Part shown: one piece after another, positions 1 through 14,115 of the stretch | How positions within the stretch are numbered: position 1 is the first letter of the stretch | Layout of the letters: each line of letters starts with the position of its first letter | Origin: a virus | Length of the DNA stretch: 14,115 nucleotides | UHGV virus genome: UHGV-0305805 | Strand: one strand, 5' to 3' | The notes under the pieces: model-generated | The model's input: the letters and a program-made list of their open reading frames with translations, nothing else | Told to the model about the DNA's origin: nothing | Database searches by the model: none | Program-made: the position numbers and the translations under genes

Positions 1-133
1 AACAGCATACAGAAGGGGCTTAAAAGCCCCTTTAGTGTTTTATGGGTGAAAAAATTATGAAGAGTATGGAAATCCGGTCATCGGAAATCACTACCAGCGG
101 AGCCGGTACGCTGACGGGCTACGTTGTTCGCTG
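1..133. repeat. Inverted repeat, left copy: exact reverse complement of 3003-3135
   Basis: Base-by-base comparison: 1-133 equals the reverse complement of 3003-3135, and identity stops at 134 (g versus t). It contains the palindromic hairpin GGGGCTTAAAAGCCCC (14-29) plus T-rich tract, and the first ~30 codons of the protease gene. Confidence 0.9.
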
Positions 134-614
134 GGATAAGCTTTCAGAACTGCTATGGGGGGAGTTTTACGAAAAATTCCAGCGGGGGGCGTTTACTGAG
201 TGGCTTGCGGCGGGTAATGACGTTCGCGGCCTGTATGAGCATGACCACAGCATGTTACTGGGGCGCACCCGTTCCGGCACGCTGAAACTGGAAGAGGACG
301 AAACAGGGTTACGCTTTGAACTGACCCCACCGGATACCAGTACAGGGCGCGACGTTATCGAACTGGTTAAGCGTGGGGACATCTCGGGGATGAGCTTTGG
401 CTTTCGCTCCCGTAAGGATGTATGGGATACCACAACAGATCCATGCGTGCGCACCGTGCTGGTGGCGGAACTGTACGAAATTACCGTTACATCGGTACCG
501 GCTTACCCCGATTCCGGCGTGGAGCTGGCCCGCCGTTCCCTGTATGAGCAGCACCCCGAAAAAATGCCGCGTGCGGATAATCGCCGCTGGTGGGTGGATT
601 TAGCGGGGGTGTGA
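42..614 (+). CDS. Prohead maturation protease, HK97 / S78 family
   Basis: 190-aa ORF with the conserved histidine context LYEHDHSMLLGRT and serine context DISGMSFGF typical of this protease family. Stop overlaps the portal start region. A likelier start is ATG at 57, preceded by GGGTGA. Confidence 0.85.
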   Translation: MGEKIMKSMEIRSSEITTSGAGTLTGYVVRWDKLSELLWGEFYEKFQRGAFTEWLAAGNDVRGLYEHDHSMLLGRTRSGTLKLEEDETGLRFELTPPDTSTGRDVIELVKRGDISGMSFGFRSRKDVWDTTTDPCVRTVLVAELYEITVTSVPAYPDSGVELARRSLYEQHPEKMPRADNRRWWVDLAGV

Positions 615-615
615 T

Positions 616-1827
616 ATGTGGCCTTTCAGAAGAAAAAAAGAGCAGCGCAGCATGACGCTGGATGAATTTATGGCGCTGGCTGGCACATCGAACACGGGGG
701 CGGGTGAGTACGTATCATCGGGGACAGCGGAATCACTGCCCGCCGTCATGAACGCCGTGACGGTCATCTCTGAGGCGGTGGCTACCATGCCGTGTTACCT
801 GTACCTGGTACGCAATGAGAAGGGGAAGGAGGCCCGCGAGTGGCTTGATTCTCATCCGGTCGATCACATCCTCAACGAGCGCCCGAACGCATGGCAAACC
901 CCCTACCAGTTTAAGCGAATGATGATCCGCCACTGCCTGTTAAACGGTAATGCTTATGCGGTGATTCAGTGGGGGCGTGATGGTTTTCCGGCGGCTTTAC
1001 ATCCTTACCCGCCGCAGTCGGTGAACGTGGAGCAGACAGGCGAACACAACTGGCGCTACTGCATCACTGACGCCTACACCGGAAACACCCGCAACTATTT
1101 ACCGTGGGAAGTACTTCACCTTCGTTACTCCACGGATGACGGCTTTATGGGGCGCTCACCTGTAACCATCTGCCGCGAATCGCTGGGGCTTGGGCTGGCC
1201 CAACAACGCCACGGCGCGAGCGTGATGCGTGATGGCATGATGGCGGCAGGGGTTATCACGTCAGGCGAATGGCTGGACGGCGTGAAGGGCAAACAGGCAT
1301 TAGCCGCACTGGAACGCTACAAAGGGGCCAGAAACGCCGGAAAAACGCCCATCCTTGAAGGGGGTATGAGCTATCAGCAGCTGGGCATGAGTAATCAGGA
1401 TGCTGAATGGCTGGCCTCCCGTCGCTTCACCATTGAAGACATCGCCCGAATGTTCAACGTCTCGCCGATTTTTTTGCAGGAATACAGCAACAGCACCTAC
1501 AGCAATTTCAGCGAGGCAAGCCGCGCATTTCTCACCATGACGATGCGCCCGTGGCTGGCGAACTTTGAGCAGCAGATAAAAAACGCCCTGCTGGTGGCCT
1601 CGCCTGTACCTGGTATCCGGTATCAGGTGGAGTTTGACAGCGCGGACCTGTTACGGGCCACACCTGGCGAACGCTTTGCCACCTATGAGCGCGGCATCAA
1701 ATCCGGCGTTATGTGTCCGAACGAAGCCCGCGAACGTGAAGGTCTGTCACCGCGTGATGGTGGTGATGAGTTCAGCCAGGCATGGAAACAGGAAGTAAAA
1801 ATCAGCGAGGGAGAAAAACCGGAATGA
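616..1827 (+). CDS. Phage portal protein (HK97-family-like)
   Basis: 403-aa ORF immediately after the protease and followed by head-completion genes; size and position fit a portal. Its stop overlaps the next start (ATGA). Confidence 0.75.
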   Translation: MWPFRRKKEQRSMTLDEFMALAGTSNTGAGEYVSSGTAESLPAVMNAVTVISEAVATMPCYLYLVRNEKGKEAREWLDSHPVDHILNERPNAWQTPYQFKRMMIRHCLLNGNAYAVIQWGRDGFPAALHPYPPQSVNVEQTGEHNWRYCITDAYTGNTRNYLPWEVLHLRYSTDDGFMGRSPVTICRESLGLGLAQQRHGASVMRDGMMAAGVITSGEWLDGVKGKQALAALERYKGARNAGKTPILEGGMSYQQLGMSNQDAEWLASRRFTIEDIARMFNVSPIFLQEYSNSTYSNFSEASRAFLTMTMRPWLANFEQQIKNALLVASPVPGIRYQVEFDSADLLRATPGERFATYERGIKSGVMCPNEAREREGLSPRDGGDEFSQAWKQEVKISEGEKPE

Positions 1828-2162
1828 ACATAGGGCGACTGCGTGACAGGATAACGATTCAGACCCTGAAACAGACCAGGGATATAACCGGCGAAATACT
1901 CGAAACGTGGGAGGACGGTCACACACTCTGGGCAAGCGTGAACATGGTCAGCAGCAAGGAGGCCATTTCATCGGGCGCAGAGCTGGCGATTGGTACCGTA
2001 AGGATCTGGATACGGTACCGGAAGGACATCAACGCCACCAGCCGGATAAAGGTCAGTACGGGGCCGCTGGCGGGGCGTGTACTGAATATCATCGGGCAGC
2101 CGCTGCCGGATGCCGCCAGGACACGCCTTGAAATTCTTTGTCGTGAGGGCGCGGAAAAATGA
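1824..2162 (+). CDS. Head closure / head-tail joining protein
   Basis: About 112 aa starting MNIGRLRDRITIQ at an ATGA overlap with the portal stop; contains an IRYRKDI-type motif common in head-tail joining proteins. The ORF track extends it to 1782. Confidence 0.6.
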   Translation: MNIGRLRDRITIQTLKQTRDITGEILETWEDGHTLWASVNMVSSKEAISSGAELAIGTVRIWIRYRKDINATSRIKVSTGPLAGRVLNIIGQPLPDAARTRLEILCREGAEK

Positions 2163-2455
2163 CAGAAGAACTTATCACCCTGGAAGAAGTGAAACTCCAT
2201 TGCCGCATCGATGGCGACGATGAAGACCAGTTAATCAGCGGATACATTGCCGCATCGCTTGAGGCGTGCCAGATACACATAGGCAGGCGCTTTGATGACG
2301 GGCTGGAGTTCACGCCAGCCATAAAGATTGGCTGCATGATGTTTATCGCTCACCTGTATGAAAATCGCCAGATTGTCGCGGATAACGCAAAAACACGCGT
2401 ACCCATGACGATAGGCGCACTCTGGACGGCTTACCGTGATGTGGGGGTGTACTGA
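2159..2455 (+). CDS. Head-tail connector (gp6-like DNA-packaging / connector protein)
   Basis: 98 aa; N-terminal ITLEEVKLHCRIDGDDEDQLI resembles the conserved N-terminus of gp6-type connectors. Translationally coupled on both sides. Confidence 0.65.
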   Translation: MTEELITLEEVKLHCRIDGDDEDQLISGYIAASLEACQIHIGRRFDDGLEFTPAIKIGCMMFIAHLYENRQIVADNAKTRVPMTIGALWTAYRDVGVY

Positions 2456-2895
2456 TGCCGTGGCAACCATTAAGACGATGCACAGAACCAGGCTGTAACA
2501 GGCGCGTTAAATCCGGCAAGTGTGAGGAGCACAGGCGGGCGGCATGGCGTGCAGAGGATGCCAGACGAGGACACCGCCGCGCGCGTGGATATTCCAGACA
2601 GTGGGACAAATACCGCGCCATGTATCTGAGTAAAAACCCGTTATGCGTGCGATGCCTTGAGAAGGGGATATATACGCCCGCCGTGGTGGTGGATCACATT
2701 ATCCCGATTAATGGCGGTGATGATGTTCTCTTCTGGCCCGAATGGAACCATCAACCATTGTGCCAGGCGTGTCATAACCAGAAAACGAAATGGCTTGATC
2801 CGGCAACAAAAAGCAAGCGTGCCGCAGGTGGATTTCGTGAAGAGGAAGAACGGGCCGCTAACCGCAATAACTGGATGTATGACGCTGATGAATGA
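2455..2895 (+). CDS. HNH endonuclease (packaging-associated)
   Basis: 146 aa with paired cysteine motifs (CTEPGCNRRV, CVRCLEKG) and the catalytic-type region VVDHIIPINGGDD...NHQPLCQACHNQKT. Confidence 0.85.
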   Translation: MPWQPLRRCTEPGCNRRVKSGKCEEHRRAAWRAEDARRGHRRARGYSRQWDKYRAMYLSKNPLCVRCLEKGIYTPAVVVDHIIPINGGDDVLFWPEWNHQPLCQACHNQKTKWLDPATKSKRAAGGFREEEERAANRNNWMYDADE

Positions 2896-3058
2896 GCGGG
2901 AACAAAACCGCCTTATCCGTGGACTTATAAGGCAGCGTGACGCATGGAAGACACAGGAAACAGGGCATAAAGATAAAGCGTCAGGACGCGCAGAACGCAT
3001 CACAGCGAACAACGTAGCCCGTCAGCGTACCGGCTCCGCTGGTAGTGATTTCCGATGA
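2888..3058 (+). CDS. Short ORF (56 aa) whose last 18 codons lie inside the inverted repeat; possible 5' remnant of a disrupted gene downstream of HNH
   Basis: ATG at 2888 overlaps the HNH stop. Codons 1-38 are unique sequence; the remainder is antisense of the protease 5' end supplied by the repeat. The longer 2657-3058 version in the ORF track overlaps HNH out of frame. Confidence 0.2.
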   Translation: MNEREQNRLIRGLIRQRDAWKTQETGHKDKASGRAERITANNVARQRTGSAGSDFR

Positions 3059-3135
3059 CCGGATTTCCATACTCTTCATAATTTTTTCACCCATAAAACA
3101 CTAAAGGGGCTTTTAAGCCCCTTCTGTATGCTGTT
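3003..3135. repeat. Inverted repeat, right copy: exact reverse complement of 1-133
   Basis: Same comparison as the left copy. The repeat ends one base short of the last capsid codon position (capsid stop is the complement of 3134-3136). Confidence 0.9.
3091..3121 (-). terminator. Intrinsic terminator after the capsid gene
   Basis: GC hairpin GGGGCTTTTAAGCCCC at 3106-3121; on the minus strand it is followed by TTTAGTGTTTT. A second copy sits at 14-39 inside the left repeat. Confidence 0.6.
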
Positions 3136-4503: not shown

Positions 4504-4532
4504 GTGAACAACGTGGAACAACCACGAACAAA
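4504..4532. promoter_or_regulatory. Phased GAACAA hexamers (x3, 10-bp spacing) including CAACGTGGAACAA; upstream of the capsid gene
   Basis: GAACAA at 4506, 4516 and 4526; the 13-mer CAACGTGGAACAA at 4509-4521. Confidence 0.4.
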
Positions 4533-4540
4533 TAATTTAC

Positions 4541-4572
4541 AAAACATGACAAAAAGCCGGATTGCTCCGGCT
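4541..4572 (-). terminator. Intrinsic terminator after the PerC-like gene
   Basis: Minus strand: AGCCGG-agcaat-CCGGCT followed by TTTTTGTCATGTTTT. Confidence 0.6.
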
Positions 4573-5549: not shown

Positions 5550-5597
5550 ATTTATTTTTACCCCCTCGTTTAAAAAGTTTTGAGTTGTGCCTCCCCT

Positions 5598-5824
5598 TGT
5601 CTACCTTATCTACCTTAGTGGCCCTCATACCAGTAATGGCGCGGCTTTCAGCGGGGTAGAGTGCTTTTATCCACTATCTACCCCGTGTCTACCTCCCTGT
5701 CTGATTCAGGTAAAATCAGGTAGAGAGGGTAGATAGTGGGTAGACAGTAAAAAAAGGTTATCTACCTAACTTAATGCACTGAATTAAATGTATTTTTCTT
5801 TACTCAGGTAGACAGGGTAGACAG
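5598..5824. repeat. Iteron array, putative origin of replication (GGTAGACAG family, both orientations, with an AT-rich tract)
   Basis: At least 11 copies of GGTAGA[C/G/T]AG or its complement at 5598-5614, 5653-5661, 5674-5693, 5719-5747 (three in tandem), 5758-5766 and 5807-5824 (two in tandem). AT-rich stretch at 5770-5805. Immediately downstream of the primase gene. Confidence 0.75.
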
Positions 5825-5837
5825 CAATTACAAAAAA

Positions 5838-7592
5838 TTATAAAAACGCGTCGCACTCGTCTGTTGTTATTGCGTTAGTCTGCGTTACTCCCTTAACTTT
5901 CCGCGTAATATATTCATGTCCGTAAACTTTCGCGGCTGGCTTCATAGCCTTGCCAAAGTCATTTACGTTTAGCGGTTTGCTCCTGCCTGCGTACGCCATA
6001 AACGCCAGATAGACGCGGTAAAGGCTGTTTCTGGTCGTGTACTTCACTGAATCGCCACCGCCGCCCATCATCAGGCCGCGTGCTTCCTCCAGAAAATTCA
6101 GGAACTGGCAAAACTCAATAACCGGATCCGTCTGTTGCTTTATTGCCAGAGCTTCATCACCGTCACGCTGTTCCAGTAGTAAAGCCCGTGCCTTCTCAGG
6201 GTCGGTAAAGTTCGCCAGCAATCGGCGGATAATGACAGGGATTTCAGCCGCGATCTTTTCCGGTAGCTCCCTGTCTTTTTCGGCCTCACTGACGATATTG
6301 TCGAAACGGAAAATCACGCGACGACGTGCCACACCTCCGGCCCGTTCGGTGAATATCATCGGGTTATTGTTGGTCGCCAGCACCACCGCCCTGATTACCG
6401 CCGTGAAACGCTTTTCGTATTTCGGGTTAATTTCCACGGGGTCACCGCCCGTGATTTTCTTGATGCCCGTTCCTTCGCCTGTATATTTCGGCTGGTCAGC
6501 CAGGACGATAAGACGACTCCCGACAACCTGCGCACGTCCACCAGCATCATCAAGCGATGTCATTTCAGCGCTTACCGTGTTCTGTTTCCCTGCCAGAAGG
6601 CTGGCTATGTGTGTGAATGTACTTTTACCGCTCCCGCCGTCTCCGGTGGCCTCAATAAACATCTGCCAGTCGTACCGGTTCGCCATAATCATGTACAGCG
6701 CGGCACATATACGCATCATCTTGCGCGGGTCTTTTCCGGCTGCGTGCTCAAGCCATTTATGAAAGTTTGGCGCGTTATCGCGGATGTTCTCCCCTGGTGC
6801 TGGTGGCGTGTACTCAATGCCGTTGTGCGTGGTGATCCAGTTCTCCGGCGTGTGCGGGGAAAATTCCCCCGTTTTCAGGTCAAGCGCACCATTGGCGAAC
6901 GGCAACAAATCGCCGGACGGCTCGCCCATTGGTTCGGCAATAACTTTTAACGCTTCCACGGCGTTATTGATTACGCGCTTGCTGAAAGTGGCCCTGTGCT
7001 CTGAATAGATCGCCACCATTTCGCGGCTAAGTTCCATTGTGCTGACCGGACACCATACCCCGCCGCGCCATACGTGAACGATTTCACTTTCAGGATGTAC
7101 GCAAACGCCATCAAAGCGATCGGCAAGCAGCTGCGCGCGCTCACTGTCCGCCATCTGCGAAAGTTGCGCCTTTTGCTTTACCGGAAGCTCAATGACCAGA
7201 CCATCAGAAAGATTCTGGCGCTCACGGGCCAGATATTCGCGCCAGTTCTCCACCTTCTGACCGTGCATACCATCAGGGTAAAAATTTGCATCCTGTACGC
7301 CTGCCGCCGCCAGCTTCTGACCAATCGCCTTTATCATTACTGGCGCAAGATATCCGGCCCTGAATATGCGCACGGATTTTCTGCCTTCCGGCACAATTTG
7401 CAGCTTATCCAGTTCGGATAACTGCTGCTCCCCAAGCCACACAGGAGGCTCATTATCTCCGGCCATACGCGCGTCATGTTCCTGCCATTGTTTTGCGTGT
7501 GACCAGGCATCACTACCCGCAAAAATAATGACTTCTGTTTCTTTGTGTTTTATGCCGCGTGACTGCTGTTTTACGTTCGGTGCCAGTTTCAT
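5838..7592 (-). CDS. Primase / replicative helicase, P4-alpha-like
   Basis: 584 aa; Walker A GDGGSGKST and Walker B-like LIVLADQP in the C-terminal half, with a primase-like N-terminal half. Start overlaps the upstream ORF stop (ATGA). Confidence 0.85.
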   Translation of the reverse strand: MKLAPNVKQQSRGIKHKETEVIIFAGSDAWSHAKQWQEHDARMAGDNEPPVWLGEQQLSELDKLQIVPEGRKSVRIFRAGYLAPVMIKAIGQKLAAAGVQDANFYPDGMHGQKVENWREYLARERQNLSDGLVIELPVKQKAQLSQMADSERAQLLADRFDGVCVHPESEIVHVWRGGVWCPVSTMELSREMVAIYSEHRATFSKRVINNAVEALKVIAEPMGEPSGDLLPFANGALDLKTGEFSPHTPENWITTHNGIEYTPPAPGENIRDNAPNFHKWLEHAAGKDPRKMMRICAALYMIMANRYDWQMFIEATGDGGSGKSTFTHIASLLAGKQNTVSAEMTSLDDAGGRAQVVGSRLIVLADQPKYTGEGTGIKKITGGDPVEINPKYEKRFTAVIRAVVLATNNNPMIFTERAGGVARRRVIFRFDNIVSEAEKDRELPEKIAAEIPVIIRRLLANFTDPEKARALLLEQRDGDEALAIKQQTDPVIEFCQFLNFLEEARGLMMGGGGDSVKYTTRNSLYRVYLAFMAYAGRSKPLNVNDFGKAMKPAAKVYGHEYITRKVKGVTQTNAITTDECDAFL

Positions 7593-9345: not shown

Positions 9346-9441
9346 AGCTACCTCGATACTTTCGCTATCGTTGGTGGTTAGAAGCCCGGTTAGTGTTAGC
9401 GCACTGCCGGGTTTCGTCGTTTCTGCACCTTGCGCCAACAA

Positions 9442-9495
9442 GGTGTTGAACACCAATTTAAACCCAGGTGTTAAACACGTCAAGTGTTGAACACT
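9442..9495. promoter_or_regulatory. Three palindromic operator-like sites, GTGTT-N-AACAC, between divergent promoters
   Basis: GGTGTTGAACACC at 9442-9454, GTGTTAAACAC at 9468-9478, AGTGTTGAACACT at 9483-9495; centres 25 and 16 bp apart. The third overlaps a -35-like TTGAAC for the rightward gene. Confidence 0.6.
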
Positions 9496-9544
9496 TATTT
9501 TTTTTCCTGCATACTGCATTTGTTTTTTATGAGGGGTACACCAC

Positions 9545-10778: not shown

Positions 10779-12008
10779 TTATTTTCTTCTGGCTACGGGT
10801 AGCGTGGTTACGTTTTCATGTGTTCCCGCCAGTATCCCTAACCGCTCCGTCCACATATCCAGCGCATTGCGTTTCGCATCCAGATAACGGGAATGATTAT
10901 AAACTCGCTGCATTCCTGGCATCTGGTGGCCTGTAAGCTGCTCCACGACATGCGGATCAACGCCTAAATCGTTCAGCATGGTTGTAAAGGTGCGCCGGAT
11001 GTCATGCAGTGACCAGTGAGGGTGATTAAGCCTCCTGTACGCTAATCTTCCATACTGCGATACGCTGGCCTCCTGTTTCACTTCCCCCAGCAATAAGCCC
11101 GTGTGCCTGTTCTGCTCCACCAGCTGCGTGACGAACGGCAGGATCGCTTCCGGTATGGGCCGGAATATTGCGACCTTCGTTTTGCTGTGCTCCTTCGGAA
11201 CGGTCCATAGCATTTCCGTAAAATCCCACTCCCCGATCTCCGATAACCTCAGTTCTACCGTTCTGGCTCCGAAGACAATCAGGAGGCGGATTAACGCGAC
11301 GTAGTAAGGGGAGAATATTTTTTTGTCCAGTGCCTGCAATAATTCGCCAAGTTCTTTGTTACTTAAGACACGTTCGCTTATATCCGGTTTTTTCCCAACG
11401 TCCGCAACGTTCAGATCGTCCAGAACGTTGCTGATTGCATAGCGCCGCCTACGGCAGAACTTAAGCGCCTGTTTGCACGCCTGTAGCACGAATCCGGCAG
11501 TAACAGGCGTTCGCTTTGCCACCTGGTCAAAACAGGCCAGCCAGTGCCGTAGCTCGCATTTATCCAGCGGCATAGCACCAATCTGCTGTATTACGTGATT
11601 ATTAAGTCGCCTTTTCAGGGCGATATAATCCACGCGGTTTTCCTTTACGTAATACTCAAGCCAGTAGGTGAGCGCATCGCCAACCGTTACGGGCTTTAAC
11701 GCTTCCTGTACGGTGTAATTCATCTCATGACGTGGATTTTTCCCCTCAGCCAGCCATGTGCGACACTGTGCGGCTTTTTCCCTGGCTGCTTTCAGGCTCA
11801 GATCAGGATAACTTCCCAGCTTAATGCGTTCGGGTCGTGTCTCCCTTCCCGTTCCGGCCCTGTATGTGAAATACCAGGTCAATTTCCCTGATGTTAAATA
11901 TTTCACGCTCAGGTTTCCGCCATCACTATAAAACGTGTTTTTCTCCGCTGGCTTACCATGAAGTTTCCTTAGCAAGGTATCGCTCAGTTTGTTCATTGCT
12001 CTGCTCAC
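10779..12008 (-). CDS. int: Tyrosine recombinase / integrase, P4-like
   Basis: 409 aa with catalytic-region motifs ARTVELR, HDIRRTF and a C-terminal YNHSRYLD tyrosine context. Start could be GTG at 12008 or ATG at 11996. Confidence 0.9.
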   Translation of the reverse strand: MSRAMNKLSDTLLRKLHGKPAEKNTFYSDGGNLSVKYLTSGKLTWYFTYRAGTGRETRPERIKLGSYPDLSLKAAREKAAQCRTWLAEGKNPRHEMNYTVQEALKPVTVGDALTYWLEYYVKENRVDYIALKRRLNNHVIQQIGAMPLDKCELRHWLACFDQVAKRTPVTAGFVLQACKQALKFCRRRRYAISNVLDDLNVADVGKKPDISERVLSNKELGELLQALDKKIFSPYYVALIRLLIVFGARTVELRLSEIGEWDFTEMLWTVPKEHSKTKVAIFRPIPEAILPFVTQLVEQNRHTGLLLGEVKQEASVSQYGRLAYRRLNHPHWSLHDIRRTFTTMLNDLGVDPHVVEQLTGHQMPGMQRVYNHSRYLDAKRNALDMWTERLGILAGTHENVTTLPVARRK

Positions 12009-12033
12009 GTTTTACCCCCTCTTTACGAAAAAG

Positions 12034-12056
12034 TGACTACACCAGTGACTACACCG
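12034..12056. repeat. 23-bp direct repeat, copy 1: TGACTACACCAGTGACTACACCG (tandem decamers)
   Basis: Exact match to 12267-12289. Sits 26-48 bp upstream of the integrase start and is followed by CAACGTGAAACAA (12076-12088) and phased GAACAA-like hexamers to about 12109. Confidence 0.8.
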
Positions 12057-12266
12057 ATCGTTGCACAAAGGGCTACAACGTGAAACAAGCTGGAACAAGG
12101 AAAATCACAAATCTGTTGATAATCAAAAACATAATGCACAGCCTGAAACATTATGAAACAGCAAAAAACACTAAATGATAAAATGCTGTTATATATAACT
12201 TATTTCGCATAACACATTGATTTAATTAAATAATTAACACCGCAAAAAGTGCCAAAAATCGCAAAA

Positions 12267-12289
12267 TGACTACACCAGTGACTACACCG
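12267..12289. repeat. 23-bp direct repeat, copy 2, followed by CAACGTGGAACAA (12309-12321)
   Basis: Exact match to copy 1. The 210 bp between the two copies is strongly AT-rich. Confidence 0.8.
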
Positions 12290-12551
12290 TTCGGTGCACT
12301 GTATGAAACAACGTGGAACAAATAGACACAAGAAATATACAGGCGGATCATCTTTCCAGGGGGAAGCACACCAATTCATGAGGGGCGTTAATGTCGATAT
12401 GGGGATCCCCACCTACCGGAATTTTTTTCCGGTTAAACGTTAATCAGGCTGGTGGGCTTTACCTGTTCGGTAGGTGTTATGATTATCGTAATACCTTTCC
12501 CCCAATGGGGTAAAAGCATCAACCGTAACGAAAGTCGTTATGGTTGCCACT

Positions 12552-12662
12552 GATACCCCAAATTTGGGTATCACGAGTAAGCCCCAAAATCTGGGTGTTA
12601 CTCTTACTACCCAAACTACGGGTAGTTTCCGTAGTTTCATGGTCGAGTTGCAGATCTGCAAC
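12552..12662. repeat. Cluster of four palindromes/hairpins in a gene-free region
   Basis: GATACCCCAAATTTGGGTATC (12552-12572); a CCCAAA...GGG unit near 12582-12597; ACTACCC-aaactac-GGGTAGT (12606-12626); perfect palindrome GTTGCAGATCTGCAAC (12647-12662). The first three share a CCCAAA-N-GGG(T) core spaced about 26 bp. Confidence 0.5.
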
Positions 12663-12918
12663 TCCCCCATTAACCACAGGCGAATTTCCGCCTTCGGTCA
12701 TTCCTTAATCATCTGCGTAATCATAATGATTATTCAGCAAGCGCAATTTTGCGCTTTGCTTAAAGTTCAGCGAGTTACCGCGCCGACTTCCTCAAATTGA
12801 GGTTTCCGAAAATATCAGCGGGTTAGCGATTAAGCTGACCATTAATTAAACTGCGAAAATGTCGTAGTTGTGAGGGGTGTAGCCAACCCATTTTTGGGCC
12901 GTCGGGAATATCAACCAG

Positions 12919-13200
12919 TTACCGCCGCAACCGCTCCGGCTTCTTCCAGTGGTACGTTATTTTCTCCTTCTCCCGATACATCTCCACGCGGCGACGGTAG
13001 GCCAGCAACTCAAGAACTCTGGTTCGTATGTTGCGCATATCCACGCCATTAAGTTCTATACCATCACGGCGCATCACCTCAGCAACAACACGCGCATAGT
13101 TTTCGGCTGTCACGCTGTCCGGCTGCGTGGCCTGTTCGTCAGCCTGCTGGCTGATTCCGGCAACGCGGCGGATTAATCCCGTTATTTCGGCTTCTGTCAT
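12919..13200 (-). CDS. Hypothetical protein (93 aa) downstream of the terminase fragment
   Basis: ATG at 13198-13200 with GAGG 8 nt upstream; starts 11 nt after the terminase-fragment stop; composition is protein-like. Confidence 0.5.
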   Translation of the reverse strand: MTEAEITGLIRRVAGISQQADEQATQPDSVTAENYARVVAEVMRRDGIELNGVDMRNIRTRVLELLAYRRRVEMYREKEKITYHWKKPERLRR

Positions 13201-13213
13201 GCTGCTGACCTCA

Positions 13214-13963
13214 TTACACCCCGCTAAATTCTTCCAGTTTCTGGCGGTGGCTGTCGCTTATATCAAAAGCAAAATCCTCATGCTCTGCCTGGAATGTACC
13301 AAACGCCATCAGCGCCGCCACGCTCGGGTCTATCTTGTTCGGTGATTTTTTCTTGTTCGGCTTGATATTGGCGTTCGCGTCACTCTGCATCACGACGTTA
13401 CTCATCGACCAGGACAACACCGGATCGCCACGATGCACAATCACCCTGCGGTTAACAAAAACTTCGAACGATTTCGCCGCCGGACTGAATCTGAGGTAGG
13501 TTTGCGGGAACGGCTCCACCTCAAAACCTGCCCCCTGTAATTGCGTTCTGAGATGCGTGGCGTTCCACGTATCAAAGCCCACCAGCCTGATATTAAATTT
13601 CTCCGCGTCCTGCATGATGTCATCTCTGATCCGGTCGTAATCAATGCAGTCGCCAGGCGTTGTGCGTATCCAGCCTGCTTTAGCCCACTGACGATAGATG
13701 GCGCGGTTTTTATTGGCGGGGTTCTGTAGCTGAAATTCCGGCAGATAGTGACGGGAAACCAGCATAATGGTTTTACCGACCGGAAAGGCATAGCACACGC
13801 TGGAAATATCGCTGGTTGATGATAAGTCCAGCCCCGCGTAACACTCCTGGCCGTGTAAATCTTCCTCCGTGAACGTTCCGGCACACTCAGCCCATGCGCC
13901 GTTACCCATCCACGGGGTAGCCCCCTGGCACCAGATATTAAATCGCTTTGTCATCATCTCCAC
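13214..13963 (-). CDS. Terminase large subunit, C-terminal nuclease domain only (N-terminal ATPase absent; truncated or rearranged)
   Basis: 249 aa with acidic nuclease-type motifs YAGLDLSSTSD, LVGFDTWN and KIDPSVAALMAF. No Walker A. The reading frame upstream is closed by a stop about 12 codons before the start, and the start lies inside an inverted repeat. Confidence 0.65.
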   Translation of the reverse strand: MEMMTKRFNIWCQGATPWMGNGAWAECAGTFTEEDLHGQECYAGLDLSSTSDISSVCYAFPVGKTIMLVSRHYLPEFQLQNPANKNRAIYRQWAKAGWIRTTPGDCIDYDRIRDDIMQDAEKFNIRLVGFDTWNATHLRTQLQGAGFEVEPFPQTYLRFSPAAKSFEVFVNRRVIVHRGDPVLSWSMSNVVMQSDANANIKPNKKKSPNKIDPSVAALMAFGTFQAEHEDFAFDISDSHRQKLEEFSGV

Positions 13964-13979
13964 CCACTGCGACGGAATA
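13922..13979. repeat. Inverted repeat, inner copy: reverse complement of 14058-14115, the last bases of the window
   Basis: Exact 58-bp match separated by a 78-bp spacer (13980-14057). The outer copy runs off the window, so the repeat may be longer. Confidence 0.9.
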
Positions 13980-14057
13980 GTGGATAAAGGCGAACCCTAA
14001 TATTGATGTTTCCGTCGATCGTGAAAAACTGGCCTCAACCATCCAGAAAGCGCGGGG

Positions 14058-14115
14058 TATTCCGTCGCAGTGGGTGGAGATGATGACAAAGCGATTTAAT
14101 ATCTGGTGCCAGGGG
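14058..14115. repeat. Inverted repeat, outer copy; the plus strand here reads the sense start of the terminase fragment (…IPSQWVEMMTKRFNIWCQG)
   Basis: Reverse complement of 13922-13979; the reading frame continues off the window. Confidence 0.9.

What the first reader, a model, noticed from the sequence alone, without database searches (positions are those of the whole stretch)
12552..12662. Cluster of four hairpin-forming palindromes, three sharing a CCCAAA-N-GGG core
Four strong palindromes within 110 bp in a non-coding stretch is unlikely by chance. Three share a core at roughly 26-bp spacing and the fourth is a perfect 16-bp palindrome. Candidates are a packaging recognition site (cos or pac), an excision-factor array, or a structured non-coding RNA. 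The ORFs predicted across this region look non-coding.
Basis: seen in the sequence. Interest (0 to 1): 0.5.

Follow-up and report, generated by a model that had tools for sequence, protein, structure and literature searches.

The report
Optional hairpin cassette in satellite end
The palindrome cluster is real, but it is not a DNA-packaging or excision site: it is an optional, recombining ~120-bp non-coding hairpin block in the end region of an E. coli phage satellite (a capsid-forming PICI), and its function is still unknown.

Summary
Window 12552-12662 has 6 perfect hairpins against 0.8 expected (0 of 2000 shuffles) and is the most palindrome-dense 111 nt of the window. The last palindrome is 20 bp (12645-12664), not 16; the second is weak.

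The window is an E. coli capsid-forming PICI read across a tandem or circular junction. The cluster lies about 350 bp from the att core and 250 bp downstream of the last late gene (orf93, after terL). It sits inside a roughly 500-bp hairpin-rich, mosaic non-coding domain.

The cluster is a discrete block (12547-12669, core 12575-12664) found in 706 of 5426 E. coli genomes, always after an orf93 homologue. Its presence does not track att site or integrase, primase type, or packaging system. An O157:H7 cf-PICI with an identical TerS lacks it, so cos/pac and Int/Xis readings are rejected.

No Rfam family, tRNA, promoter or intrinsic terminator matches. Stems show a few compensatory changes and loops vary, so it probably acts as single-stranded secondary structure. 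My best guess, at low confidence, is stem-loops in the 3' trailer of the late transcript. A cargo small RNA, a BIME-like DNA element and neutral recombination debris remain open.

The parts
12547..12669 (.). Full conserved cassette, the 'module', as shared with most other islands. It contains P1, the S/P2 compound hairpin, P3/P3' and P4.
   Evidence: blastn matches many genomes only over query 208-330, which is window 12547-12669. A covariance model hits window 12545-12668 at 156 bits.
12575..12664 (.). Minimal core, kept in every mosaic variant (GAGTAAG...GCAACTC).
   Evidence: Variants L009, L028, L055 and L260 replace everything to the left of about 12575-12583 but keep this stretch. It is 96% identical on average between islands whose orf93 genes differ by up to 22%.
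12551..12573 (.). P1 hairpin (stem GATACCC/GGGTATC, variable loop). It is replaceable.
   Evidence: Compensatory changes T-A<->C-G and A-T->C-G are seen. Loops vary in sequence and in length from 5 to 9 nt. In L260 it is swapped for a different hairpin.
12575..12603 (.). Compound hairpin: outer stem GAGTAA/TTACTC enclosing P2 (CCCA-N5-TGGG).
   Evidence: P2 is broken in L007/L008 and extended to 5 bp in L260. It is the weakest of the four.
12606..12637 (.). P3 (ACTACCC/GGGTAGT) overlapping P3' (AAACTACGG/CCGTAGTTT). It also contains the direct repeat GTAGTTTC x2.
   Evidence: Variants with a 9-nt deletion keep an AAACTAC-NN-GTAGTTT palindrome.
12645..12664 (.). P4, a perfect 20-bp palindrome GAGTTGCAGATCTGCAACTC.
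   Evidence: The inner pair changes G-C -> A-T symmetrically in L007/L008.
12494..12546 (.). Flanking conserved hairpins: CCTTTCCCCCAATGGGGTAAAAG (12494-12516) and CAACCGTAACGA-AAG-TCGTTATGGTTG (12520-12546).
   Evidence: They are also present in islands that lack the module, with compensatory variants such as CCACCAATGGTGG in CFT073.
12376..12480 (.). Conserved palindromic stretch shared by nearly all related islands. It holds GGGGATCCCC, CCGGAATTTTTTTCCGG, the pair CACCTACCG...CGGTAGGTG, and a Chi site at 12448-12455 (+).
12679..12692 (.). Hairpin GGCG-AATTTC-CGCC just right of the module. The equivalent position in other islands holds quite different stems.
   Evidence: AACGCAA/TTGCGTT, AGTGCA/TGCACT, GGCGTAAA/TTTGCGTC and ACGCAA/TTGCGT occupy this position.
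12739..12921 (-). Repeated units, each made of a copy of the orf93 3' end (..CGGTAAC), a box TGATATTYYCGRAA that matches the IHF consensus, and a short variable hairpin. There are three copies here and up to seven in other islands.
   Evidence: (family D2). The first box overlaps the orf93 stop codon at 12919-12921.
12919..13200 (-). orf93, the last gene of the island and always the upstream neighbour of the module. Its function is unknown.
   Evidence: It matches phrog_1561 and no Pfam family. The AF2 model is a three-helix protein with pLDDT 73 and no PDB fold match. The module lies 45-523 nt after its stop codon in 35 unique contexts.
12184..12200 (.). att core (AGTTATATATAACAGCA on the - strand), marking the junction between two tandem or circularised copies.
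   Evidence: Identity with single-copy genomes starts at 12184, next to the tqsA 5' fragment. The divergence point is visible in L164 against the window.

Best explanation
**What it is (well supported).** The window is an E. coli capsid-forming phage-inducible chromosomal island (cf-PICI), read across a tandem or circular junction. The four palindromes form a discrete non-coding cassette: 12547-12669 in full, 12575-12664 as the core. The cassette lies in the satellite's terminal non-coding region, between the last late gene (orf93, downstream of terL) and the attachment site.

That whole region, about 12360-12920, is a mosaic of short hairpin-forming palindromes, repeated fossil copies of the orf93 3' end, and Chi sites.

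The cassette is optional. It is either present nearly intact or absent. It has been shuffled by recombination among PICIs that differ in integrase and att site, in primase, and in packaging machinery.

**How it most likely works (inferred, low confidence).** It probably acts as intramolecular stem-loops in single-stranded nucleic acid. The most parsimonious setting is the untranslated 3' trailer of the unidirectional late transcript that ends here. The palindromes fold equally well on a convergent read-in transcript from the host or cargo side.

In that role the stem-loops would block 3' exonucleases and impede read-through. In the excised circle or concatemer they would insulate attP and int from late transcription. 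In the integrated state they would insulate host DNA. They depend on host factors rather than on any island-specific protein.

It is not the cos/pac site and not an Int/Xis array.
For: **Identity and context**
- Annotation of identical genomes shows int, primase, MCP, protease, portal, HNH, P27-family TerS, TerL and orf93. This matches the published cf-PICI organisation.
- All genes are on one strand, so late transcription runs into this region.

**Discreteness and optionality**
- blastn boundaries fall at 12547 and 12669.
- The covariance model finds copies scoring at least 90 bits, or nothing, in the stretches after orf93 and terL of 88 loci. The weaker hits it did return lie on the opposite strand of, or beside, those same copies.
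- The cassette is present in 8 of 20 cf-PICI loci, 8 of 21 TerS180-type loci and 1 of 5 Rpp-type loci.
- Orientation relative to orf93 is constant, and the cassette starts 45-523 nt after the orf93 stop codon.

**Independence from island-specific proteins**
- Insertion sites differ: tqsA, thiM, hpt, phoQ, clpS and prophage genes.
- The window's primase is 99% identical to that of module-less EcCICFT073, but only 49% identical to the primase of module-bearing L004.
- An O157:H7 island with the identical TerS lacks the module.

**Structure**
- Folding z-scores are -9.8 and -8.3.
- The region is the longest structured run in the window.
- Stems are retained with compensatory changes at three pairs. 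P1 loops vary in sequence and length, and the hairpin position next to the module holds quite different stems in different islands. This pattern fits a folded nucleic acid better than a spaced protein-binding site.
- The P1, P3' and P4 motifs occur nowhere else in the island, so they are not repeated operators.

**Mosaic exchange**
- The core is 96% identical between islands whose orf93 third-codon positions are only 60-67% identical.
- Chi is highly enriched: 14 sites against 0.41 expected in the window, and 1.6 per kb in terminal regions.
Against: - No transcript data exist for this region.
- No sigma-70 promoter and no intrinsic terminator (hairpin plus U-tract) is detectable on either strand. 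A classical terminator role is therefore not supported.
- Covariation is thin: 3 pairs and 6 cells. The tested structure was derived from these same sequences.
- Hairpin mismatches show no G.U bias for either strand, 11 against 12. The RNA reading and its strand are therefore unproven.
- Symmetric changes in palindromes can also arise by template-switch 'quasipalindrome correction' without selection. This is established knowledge and was not tested here.
- A plain exonuclease barrier does not obviously need a block this conserved. By eye on the listing (no dedicated computation), variation within one mosaic type looks as dense inside the module as in its flanks. That points to recent spread rather than strong constraint and leaves neutrality possible.
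Confidence: 0.35

Rival explanations
1. The cassette is accessory cargo: a structured small RNA, processed from the late transcript or weakly self-transcribed. It would act in trans on the helper phage, the host or competing elements.
For: The block is cassette-like, either present or absent, and sits in the region where PICIs carry accessory genes; an Abi gene lies next to it in L007/L008. It has spread across unrelated PICI backbones with nearly every nucleotide retained. Its fold is very stable. P3 and P3' form mutually exclusive helices.
Against: No Rfam family matches, even at E<=10. No promoter and no Rho-independent terminator lies inside or next to the block. No strand preference was found. 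No paper in the searchable library contains the sequence.
Confidence: 0.15
2. It is a DNA-level element, analogous to REP/BIME clusters: palindromes and adjacent IHF-consensus boxes bound by host architectural or topological proteins such as IHF and gyrase. Alternatively, the hairpins form in single-stranded DNA during replication.
For: The neighbouring repeated boxes match the IHF consensus WATCAANNNNTTR, for example TATCAACCAGTTA at 12909-12921 and TATCAGCGGGTTA at 12813-12825. The palindromes are symmetric and show no strand bias. The block is independent of all island-specific proteins.
Against: The IHF-like boxes lie outside the four-palindrome block. Loop lengths vary, which is unfavourable for a spaced dimer site. 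There is no sequence similarity to REP/BIME, and there is only one copy per island. No binding data exist.
Confidence: 0.15
3. It has no function of its own. It is recombination debris, or a selfish palindromic mini-repeat, accumulating in a Chi-rich recombination hotspot at the satellite end.
For: The terminal region is a patchwork of shuffled segments and up to seven fossil copies of the orf93 3' end. Chi density is high. The block is dispensable in most islands of every type. By eye on the listing (no dedicated computation), variation within one mosaic type is similar inside and outside the block.
Against: The block is kept nearly intact in 706 genomes and, in the loci examined, in a fixed orientation and position. 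Stems are maintained through compensatory changes.
Confidence: 0.2
4. It is the packaging recognition site (cos or pac), an array of small-terminase binding palindromes.
For: Repeats spaced at about 26-27 bp recall terminase-binding arrays such as the R sites of lambda cosB. The block lies within 1 kb of terL.
Against: It is absent from 39 of 54 cf-PICI loci, while the terS-upstream GC-rich gap is conserved in 79 of 79. It is absent from an O157:H7 cf-PICI encoding the identical TerS, WP_000113645.1. It is present in classic PICIs whose lambda-type cosN lies upstream of rpp or terS. The window contains no lambda cosN.
Confidence: 0.03
5. It is an array of binding sites for integrase or an excision factor (Xis/AlpA) belonging to attP.
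For: The block lies in the non-coding arm between the last gene and the att core, and in a tandem or circular junction it belongs to the region around attP.
Against: It lies about 350 bp from the core. It is found at at least six different att sites and is absent from many islands at the same att site (phoQ: L005, L262 against L009, L260). The likely arm-type repeats are the GTGACTACACC pairs flanking the core. Palindromes are atypical for arm-type or Xis sites, which are usually direct repeats (established knowledge).
Confidence: 0.03
6. It encodes a small protein on the + strand (..KPQNLGVTLTTQTTGSFRSFMVELQICNS..).
For: The frame stays open in three diverged variants and the 9-nt indels are in frame. 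This rests on my reading of the sequences.
Against: The N- and C-termini differ between contexts, and by my hand translation of the and 51 sequence the L009 variant has no start codon. One variant has a 1-nt deletion. Substitutions fall 7/3/9 across codon positions, which is not significant. There is no PHROG hit. Only 20 sporadic ORF calls match, all from E. coli where a source names the organism, and there is no parent family. The 9-nt indel equals one copy of the GTAGTTTCC repeat.
Confidence: 0.05

Closest known systems
REP/BIME clusters of E. coli (including IHF-binding RIB/RIP elements)
   Same: Both are clusters of short imperfect palindromes in non-coding DNA just after the last gene of an operon. 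Both fold on either strand and lie next to IHF-consensus sites. Both depend on host factors and are thought to stabilise mRNA 3' ends and bind architectural proteins.
   Different: There is no sequence similarity to the REP consensus. The block occurs once per island and only inside PICIs, not hundreds of times in the chromosome. It behaves as one fixed 120-bp unit rather than as an array of one repeated unit.
Lambda sib and other 3' retroregulatory hairpins next to attP
   Same: Both are structured non-coding sequence beside the attachment site of an integrating element. In both, linkage to neighbouring genes changes between the integrated and the circular form.
   Different: sib lies downstream of int and is a single RNase III hairpin. 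Here the hairpins lie downstream of the late operon and upstream of int in the circle. They are multiple and optional, and no processing has been tested.
PICI cos sites (cos1/cos2 of EcCICFT073) and lambda cosB R-site arrays
   Same: Both are non-coding, repeat-containing DNA near packaging genes of the same satellite family. IHF-like sites are nearby.
   Different: The published cos sites carry the lambda cosN GGGCGGCGACCT and lie upstream of rpp or terS. This block has no cosN, lies after the last gene, and is absent from islands with the same terminase.
Satellite- and phage-borne regulatory small RNAs (for example P4 CI RNA)
   Same: Both are compact, stable multi-hairpin sequence carried by a phage satellite without an ORF. 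P4 CI RNA is processed from a longer transcript rather than made from its own promoter.
   Different: There is no homology (Rfam negative). The block sits at the 3' end of the operon rather than in the leader. No complementary target sequences were found in the island.

Membership tests
cos site of lambda-like / PICI type (cosQ-cosN-cosB) | A cosN nicking sequence (GGGCGGCGACCT or a close variant) | tested here: not met
   The window has no match with 0-1 mismatches. The single 2-mismatch hit lies at 6439 inside the primase gene, at chance level. EcCICFT073 and L003 carry cosN elsewhere.
cos site of lambda-like / PICI type (cosQ-cosN-cosB) | Position immediately upstream of the small-terminase or rpp gene | tested here: not met
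   The block lies downstream of terL and orf93, which is the far end of the operon.
cos/pac site of the cf-PICI HNH-TerS(P27)-TerL system | Present in every element packaged by the same terminase | tested here: not met
   The block is present in 15 of 54 cf-PICI loci, against 79 of 79 for the terS-upstream gap. The O157:H7 island with identical TerS WP_000113645.1 lacks it.
cos/pac site of the cf-PICI HNH-TerS(P27)-TerL system | Packaged DNA termini, or TerS binding, map to the site | not testable with these tools
   This needs terminus sequencing of particles or footprinting.
attP arm-type Int / Xis (RDF) binding array | Co-occurrence with one integrase and att specificity | tested here: not met
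   The same block is found at tqsA, thiM, hpt, phoQ, clpS and intra-prophage sites. It is both present and absent at phoQ.
attP arm-type Int / Xis (RDF) binding array | Short direct repeats within about 150 bp of the core | tested here: not met
   The block consists of palindromes about 350-480 bp from the core. The direct repeats GTGACTACACC x2 flank the core at 12033-12056 and 12266-12289.
Any Rfam RNA family (4227 covariance models) | Score at or above the family's gathering threshold | tested here: not met
   There were 0 hits at gathering thresholds over the whole window. At E<=10 only chance hits of 16 bits or less appeared. No tRNA or tmRNA was found.
Intrinsic (Rho-independent) terminator | GC-rich hairpin followed directly by a U-tract | tested here: not met
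   The scan of 12000-13250 finds none within 12547-12669 on either strand. No palindrome is followed by a T-run.
Independent sRNA gene | Its own promoter and a defined 3' end | tested here: inconclusive
   No sigma-70 consensus or terminator was found. Processing from a longer transcript cannot be excluded without RNA data.
Conserved RNA secondary structure (generic) | Covariation supporting the helices | tested here: inconclusive
   3 of 37 pairs change on both sides (6 cells), and 2 of 500 shuffles reach the observed score. Sequence diversity is low and the structure was derived from the same sequences. No G.U strand bias was seen.
REP/BIME elements | Many dispersed chromosomal copies of a roughly 35-nt consensus palindrome | tested here: not met
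   The median is 1 place per genome that has it, it occurs in only 706 of 5426 genomes, and in every locus examined it lies after an orf93 homologue.
PICI replication origin or P4-like crr site | Iterons matching, and co-varying with, the Pri-Rep protein | tested here: not met
   The ori-type iterons (TCTACC) lie 3' of the primase gene at about 5590-5830, as published. Module presence does not follow primase type.
Protein-coding small ORF | A conserved open frame with start and stop, and homologues | tested here: not met
   Termini are variable, and by hand translation of the and 51 sequence the L009 variant has no start codon. There is no PHROG hit, and only 20 sporadic ORF calls match, all from E. 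coli where a source names the organism.

The most novel reading that the evidence does not exclude
The cassette is a satellite-specific, horizontally sweeping, RNA-only accessory module. It would be a structured non-coding RNA, or a single-stranded DNA structure, that PICIs exchange by Chi-stimulated recombination because it gives an advantage in trans. Examples would be a decoy or regulator aimed at helper phages, host nucleases or competing satellites. If so, it would be the first non-coding 'cargo' described for enterobacterial PICIs.
Probability: 0.12. Interest if true: 0.7.

Novelty: new variant of a known kind. Interest (0 to 1): 0.35.

Why it matters
PICIs and cf-PICIs are widespread vehicles of gene transfer. 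Their proteins, cos sites, origins and att sites have been studied, but the non-coding end of the island has not been described in the literature I could search.

This work shows three things. First, that end is a hairpin-rich, Chi-rich recombination mosaic. Second, it contains at least one discrete cassette that moves between otherwise unrelated satellites. Third, the obvious guesses for the cassette (cos/pac and an excision array) are wrong.

If the cassette has a function, as an RNA barrier, an RNA cargo or a DNA architectural site, it would add a new cis or trans component to satellite biology. If it has none, the region still documents how satellites exchange modules.

For annotation, the practical lesson is that this palindrome cluster should not be labelled as a packaging site.

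Tried and rejected
**Rfam and tRNA searches.** Rfam at gathering and permissive thresholds, and ARAGORN, found nothing.

**Promoter and terminator scan.** Nothing was found in the block.

**Other collections.**
- The phage collection (blastn, distant mode) gave no match.
- A genome-contig scan with the 17-mer CTTACTACCCAAACTAC returned only chance hits in unrelated phyla.

**Lambda cos comparison.**
- The window has no cosN.
- A 22/25 match between 12431-12456 and the cosB part of EcCICFT073 cos1 scored 28, against a shuffle maximum of 32, so it is not significant.

**orf93 as a possible DNA-binding partner.** There is no Pfam match. The AF2 model is a three-helix protein (pLDDT 73). Foldseek against the PDB found nothing at E<=0.001. 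This was a dead end.

**crr-like or ori-related site.** Rejected: the iterons are elsewhere and the module does not follow primase type.

**Repeated operator sites.** Rejected: the P1, P3' and P4 motifs are unique in the island.

**Small ORF.** Rejected.

**Strand assignment by G.U against A.C mismatches.** Inconclusive, 11 against 12.

**Searching for diverged copies with a covariance model.** None were found; copies are either high-scoring or absent.

**Literature.** Full-text searches for the sequences and for PICI small RNAs turned up nothing relevant.

**Ideas checked by eye and dropped.**
- CsrA sponge: there are no GGA motifs in the loops.
- CRISPR-repeat mimic: no resemblance to E. coli I-E or I-F repeats as I recall them.
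- Type I toxin-antitoxin: no hydrophobic peptide.
- MITE or IS200-type miniature element: no terminal inverted repeats and no dispersed copies.

Full report
**1. The observation.**
The sequence at 12552-12662 contains the palindromes described.
- P1 is TGATACCCCAAATTTGGGTATCA (12551-12573).
- P2 is a weak CCCA-N5-TGGG (12583-12595), nested inside a GAGTAA/TTACTC stem.
- P3 is ACTACCC/GGGTAGT (12606-12626). It overlaps a mutually exclusive 9-bp hairpin, AAACTACGG/CCGTAGTTT (12613-12637).
- P4 is a perfect 20-bp palindrome, GAGTTGCAGATCTGCAACTC (12645-12664).

CCCAA(A) cores start at 12557, 12583 and 12610, with a fourth at 12501.

The stretch holds 6 perfect hairpins with 44 stem bp, against 0.8 hairpins and 4.3 bp in 2000 shuffles (none as high). 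It is the top-scoring 111-nt window of the 14 kb. As RNA, 12490-12720 folds with z = -9.8 on the + strand and -8.3 on the - strand.

A sliding scan shows that the cluster is the centre of a continuous structured domain, about 12360-12900. The only comparable spot lies at 5641-5760.

**2. Where it sits.**
The window is E. coli DNA. Annotated identical genomes show a 15.3-kb element with integrase, AlpA-like regulator, primase, SSB, PerC, major capsid protein, prohead protease, portal, connectors, HNH, P27-family TerS, TerL and a 93-aa ORF, all on one strand. This is the organisation published for capsid-forming PICIs.

In strain EC444 the element is tandemly duplicated. In most strains it is single and inserted in tqsA. 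The window reads from int (10779-12008, - strand) across a reconstituted attP-like junction into the other end of the element.
- The core is at 12184-12200.
- Probable Int arm repeats, GTGACTACACC x2, lie at 12033-12056 and 12266-12289.

The palindromes therefore lie about 350 bp from the core and 250 bp downstream of orf93 (12919-13200, - strand). orf93 follows terL and is the last gene of the element.

**3. It is a discrete, optional cassette.**
blastn against 5426 complete E. coli genomes shows many genomes matching only window 12547-12669, at 93-95% identity with non-homologous flanks. 706 genomes carry it, with a median of one copy.

In every context inspected it lies after an orf93 homologue, in the same orientation, 45-523 nt past the stop codon. 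Mosaic variants define a minimal core at 12575-12664. P1 can be replaced by unrelated sequence or by another hairpin.

A covariance model built from 18 variants finds either high-scoring copies (at least 90 bits) or nothing after orf93 or terL in 88 loci. Its weaker hits fall on the opposite strand of, or beside, the same copies. No diverged intermediates were seen.

Compared with module-less islands, the block is an insertion or deletion between "...AAGG" and "CAACC...".

**4. What it is independent of.**
- *Packaging type.* Among IMG/VR loci with enough sequence, the block is present in 8 of 20 cf-PICIs, 8 of 21 classic PICIs with a 180-aa TerS, and 1 of 5 Rpp-type PICIs. In a second set it is present in 15 of 54 cf-PICIs.
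- *Integrase and att site.* It occurs at tqsA, thiM, hpt, phoQ, clpS and inside prophage genes. At phoQ it is both present and absent.
- *Replication type.* The window's primase is 99% identical to that of EcCICFT073, which lacks the block, and only 49% identical to that of L004, which has it. The ori-type iterons (TCTACC) lie 3' of the primase gene at about 5590-5830, as published.

**5. Rejecting cos/pac and excision arrays.**
The published PICI cos sites carry the lambda cosN and lie upstream of rpp. In EcCICFT073 both copies lie upstream of orf93.

The window has no cosN. For the cf-PICI terminase the expected position of cos is the gap between the small ORF after HNH and terS. That 122-bp GC-rich gap lies outside this window. 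It is conserved in 79 of 79 cf-PICI loci at a mean identity of 89.5%.

An O157:H7 cf-PICI (strain FRIK804) encodes the identical TerS (WP_000113645.1) yet has no trace of the block. A site that this terminase must recognise cannot be missing there.

The att-site independence, the distance from the core and the palindromic rather than direct-repeat nature argue against an Int/Xis array.

**6. What kind of thing it is.**
No Rfam family, tRNA or tmRNA matches. No sigma-70 promoter or hairpin-plus-U-tract terminator is present. No paper in the library contains the sequence.

Evidence for secondary structure:
- P1 shows T-A<->C-G and A-T->C-G replacements, with the single-change intermediates also present.
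- P4 shows a symmetric G-C->A-T change in the 76%-identical L007/L008 variant.
- P1 loops vary in sequence and length from 5 to 9 nt.
- The hairpin position just right of the block holds quite different stems in different islands.

Limits of that evidence:
- Formally the signal is thin: 3 of 37 pairs, with 2 of 500 shuffles as high.
- P2 is not supported.
- Single mismatches in 79 distinct hairpins from 49 terminal regions are G.U-compatible on the sense strand 11 times and on the antisense strand 12 times, so no strand can be assigned.
- The motifs occur nowhere else in the island, so they are not repeated operators.
- An ORF through the block stays open in some variants, but it has variable ends, no homologues beyond 20 sporadic calls, and no codon-position signal.

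**7. The surrounding region.**
Downstream of orf93 every related island has a mosaic built from three kinds of element:
- one to seven diverged copies of a unit made of the orf93 3' end (..CGGTAAC), a box matching the IHF consensus, and a short variable hairpin;
- optional cassettes such as this one;
- a conserved palindromic stretch (12376-12546 here) that contains a Chi site.

Chi is strikingly enriched. The window has 14 sites against 0.41 expected. Terminal regions carry 1.6 per kb, against 0.41 per kb in the upstream genes.

The core of the block is about 96% identical between islands whose orf93 genes are only 78-80% identical, or 60-67% at third codon positions. By eye on the listing, without a dedicated computation, variation inside the block within one mosaic type looks no lower than in its flanks. 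The pattern therefore reflects recent recombinational spread rather than extreme constraint.

**8. Best explanation and rivals.**
*Shown:* a real, conserved, optional non-coding cassette of the PICI terminal region. It is not cos/pac, not an att array, not ori-linked and not coding.

*Inferred:* it acts as stem-loops in single-stranded nucleic acid, independently of island-specific proteins. All genes are co-directional and the block always follows the last gene in one orientation. The most parsimonious single-stranded context is therefore the 3' trailer of the late transcript. There, multiple hairpins would hinder exonucleases and read-through toward attP and int in the circle, or toward host DNA in the prophage. 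Because they are palindromes, they would also act on convergent read-in. I give this 0.35.

The rivals are:
- neutral or selfish debris of a Chi-driven hotspot (0.2);
- an RNA cargo acting in trans (0.15);
- a BIME-like DNA element bound by host proteins, or replication-associated ssDNA hairpins (0.15);
- a small ORF (0.05);
- cos/pac (0.03);
- an Int/Xis array (0.03).

**9. Comparison with known systems and novelty.**
Functionally the nearest analogues are REP/BIME clusters and 3' retroregulatory hairpins. The block is a member of neither: it has no consensus similarity, it occurs once per island, and it is restricted to PICIs.

I found no description of this block or of the mosaic PICI end in the searchable literature. 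I rate it a new variant of a known kind (an intergenic hairpin cluster) and of moderate interest. It also yields a testable cassette with clean natural plus and minus variants.

Noticed in passing
window 1-3135 and 13922-14115: The window is chimeric at both ends. Positions 1-3009 are inverted relative to all reference genomes. The junction at 2999-3009 carries an 11-nt overlap and lies inside a 137-nt inverted repeat (1-137 against 2999-3135). The last 58 nt (14058-14115) are the reverse complement of 13922-13979. This looks like fold-back assembly or amplification artefacts rather than biology.
   Followed up: partly
window 12009-12340: This is an attP-like junction of two element copies. 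The core is at 12184-12200, and paired GTGACTACACC repeats lie on both arms (12033-12056, 12266-12289). In EC444 the element is a tandem duplication; in most strains it is single and inserted in tqsA.
   Followed up: partly
window, 14 sites (e.g. 458, 586, 1590, 4904, 6799, 7658, 9226, 12448 on +; 2035, 5238, 6538, 9965, 11117, 13579 on -): The Chi sequence GCTGGTGG is extremely over-represented: 14 copies against 0.41 expected, with 0 of 200 shuffles as high. One copy, at 12448-12455, lies in a stretch shared by most related islands. Terminal non-coding regions of related islands carry 1.6 Chi per kb. This may protect the satellite's linear or concatemeric DNA from RecBCD and may drive the mosaicism.
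   Followed up: partly
window 12739-12921 (and L146, L145 downstream of orf93): There are tandem, diverged copies of a unit made of the orf93 3' end, a box matching the IHF consensus (WATCAANNNNTTR) and a short variable hairpin. The window has three copies and other islands up to seven. They look like fossil gene ends left by serial recombination.
   Followed up: partly
window 12376-12546: This palindromic stretch (GGGGATCCCC, CCGGAATTTTTTTCCGG, CCTTTCCCCCAATGGGGTAAAAG, and a 12-bp hairpin at 12520-12546) is conserved in nearly all related PICIs, including EcCICFT073. Positions 12431-12456 resemble the cosB part of EcCICFT073 cos1 (22/25), but the match is not above shuffles. Its function is unknown.
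   Followed up: partly
window 5590-5830: Two opposed sets of TCTACC/GGTAGA iterons lie in the non-coding stretch 3' of the primase gene. This fits the published PICI replication origin. It is the second most structured spot in the window.
   Followed up: partly
window 9430-9500: Three copies of the palindrome GTGTTGAACAC / GTGTTAAACAC lie within 70 bp, followed by a T-run. This is the second densest palindrome cluster in the window. They are probably operators in the regulatory region near the YlcI/Icd-like genes.
   Followed up: no
window 4507-4541, 12074-12108, 12307-12341: A motif AACAACGTGGAACAA... recurs on both att arms and once between the capsid and PerC genes (family D2). It could be a binding site for a regulator or recombination protein.
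   Followed up: no
L001 804-925 (outside the window; between the small ORF after HNH and terS): This GC-rich 122-bp gap (GACGGGGTGGGGGGCG...CCCGACCCCGCCGGGC) is conserved in 79 of 79 cf-PICI loci. It is the best candidate for the still unmapped cf-PICI cos site.
   Followed up: partly
window 11996-12178 (+): A small annotated ORF (WP_001332680.1 in EC444) reads outward from the int end across the att arm. In the single-copy prophage it might run into the remainder of the interrupted tqsA gene.
   Followed up: no
L029, L042, L055, L074 (IMG/VR loci near hpt): Two copies of the cassette lie about 434 bp apart, separated by sequence with AAATAACCCGCAA repeats. This looks like the remnant end of a second, decayed island integrated in tandem.
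   Followed up: partly
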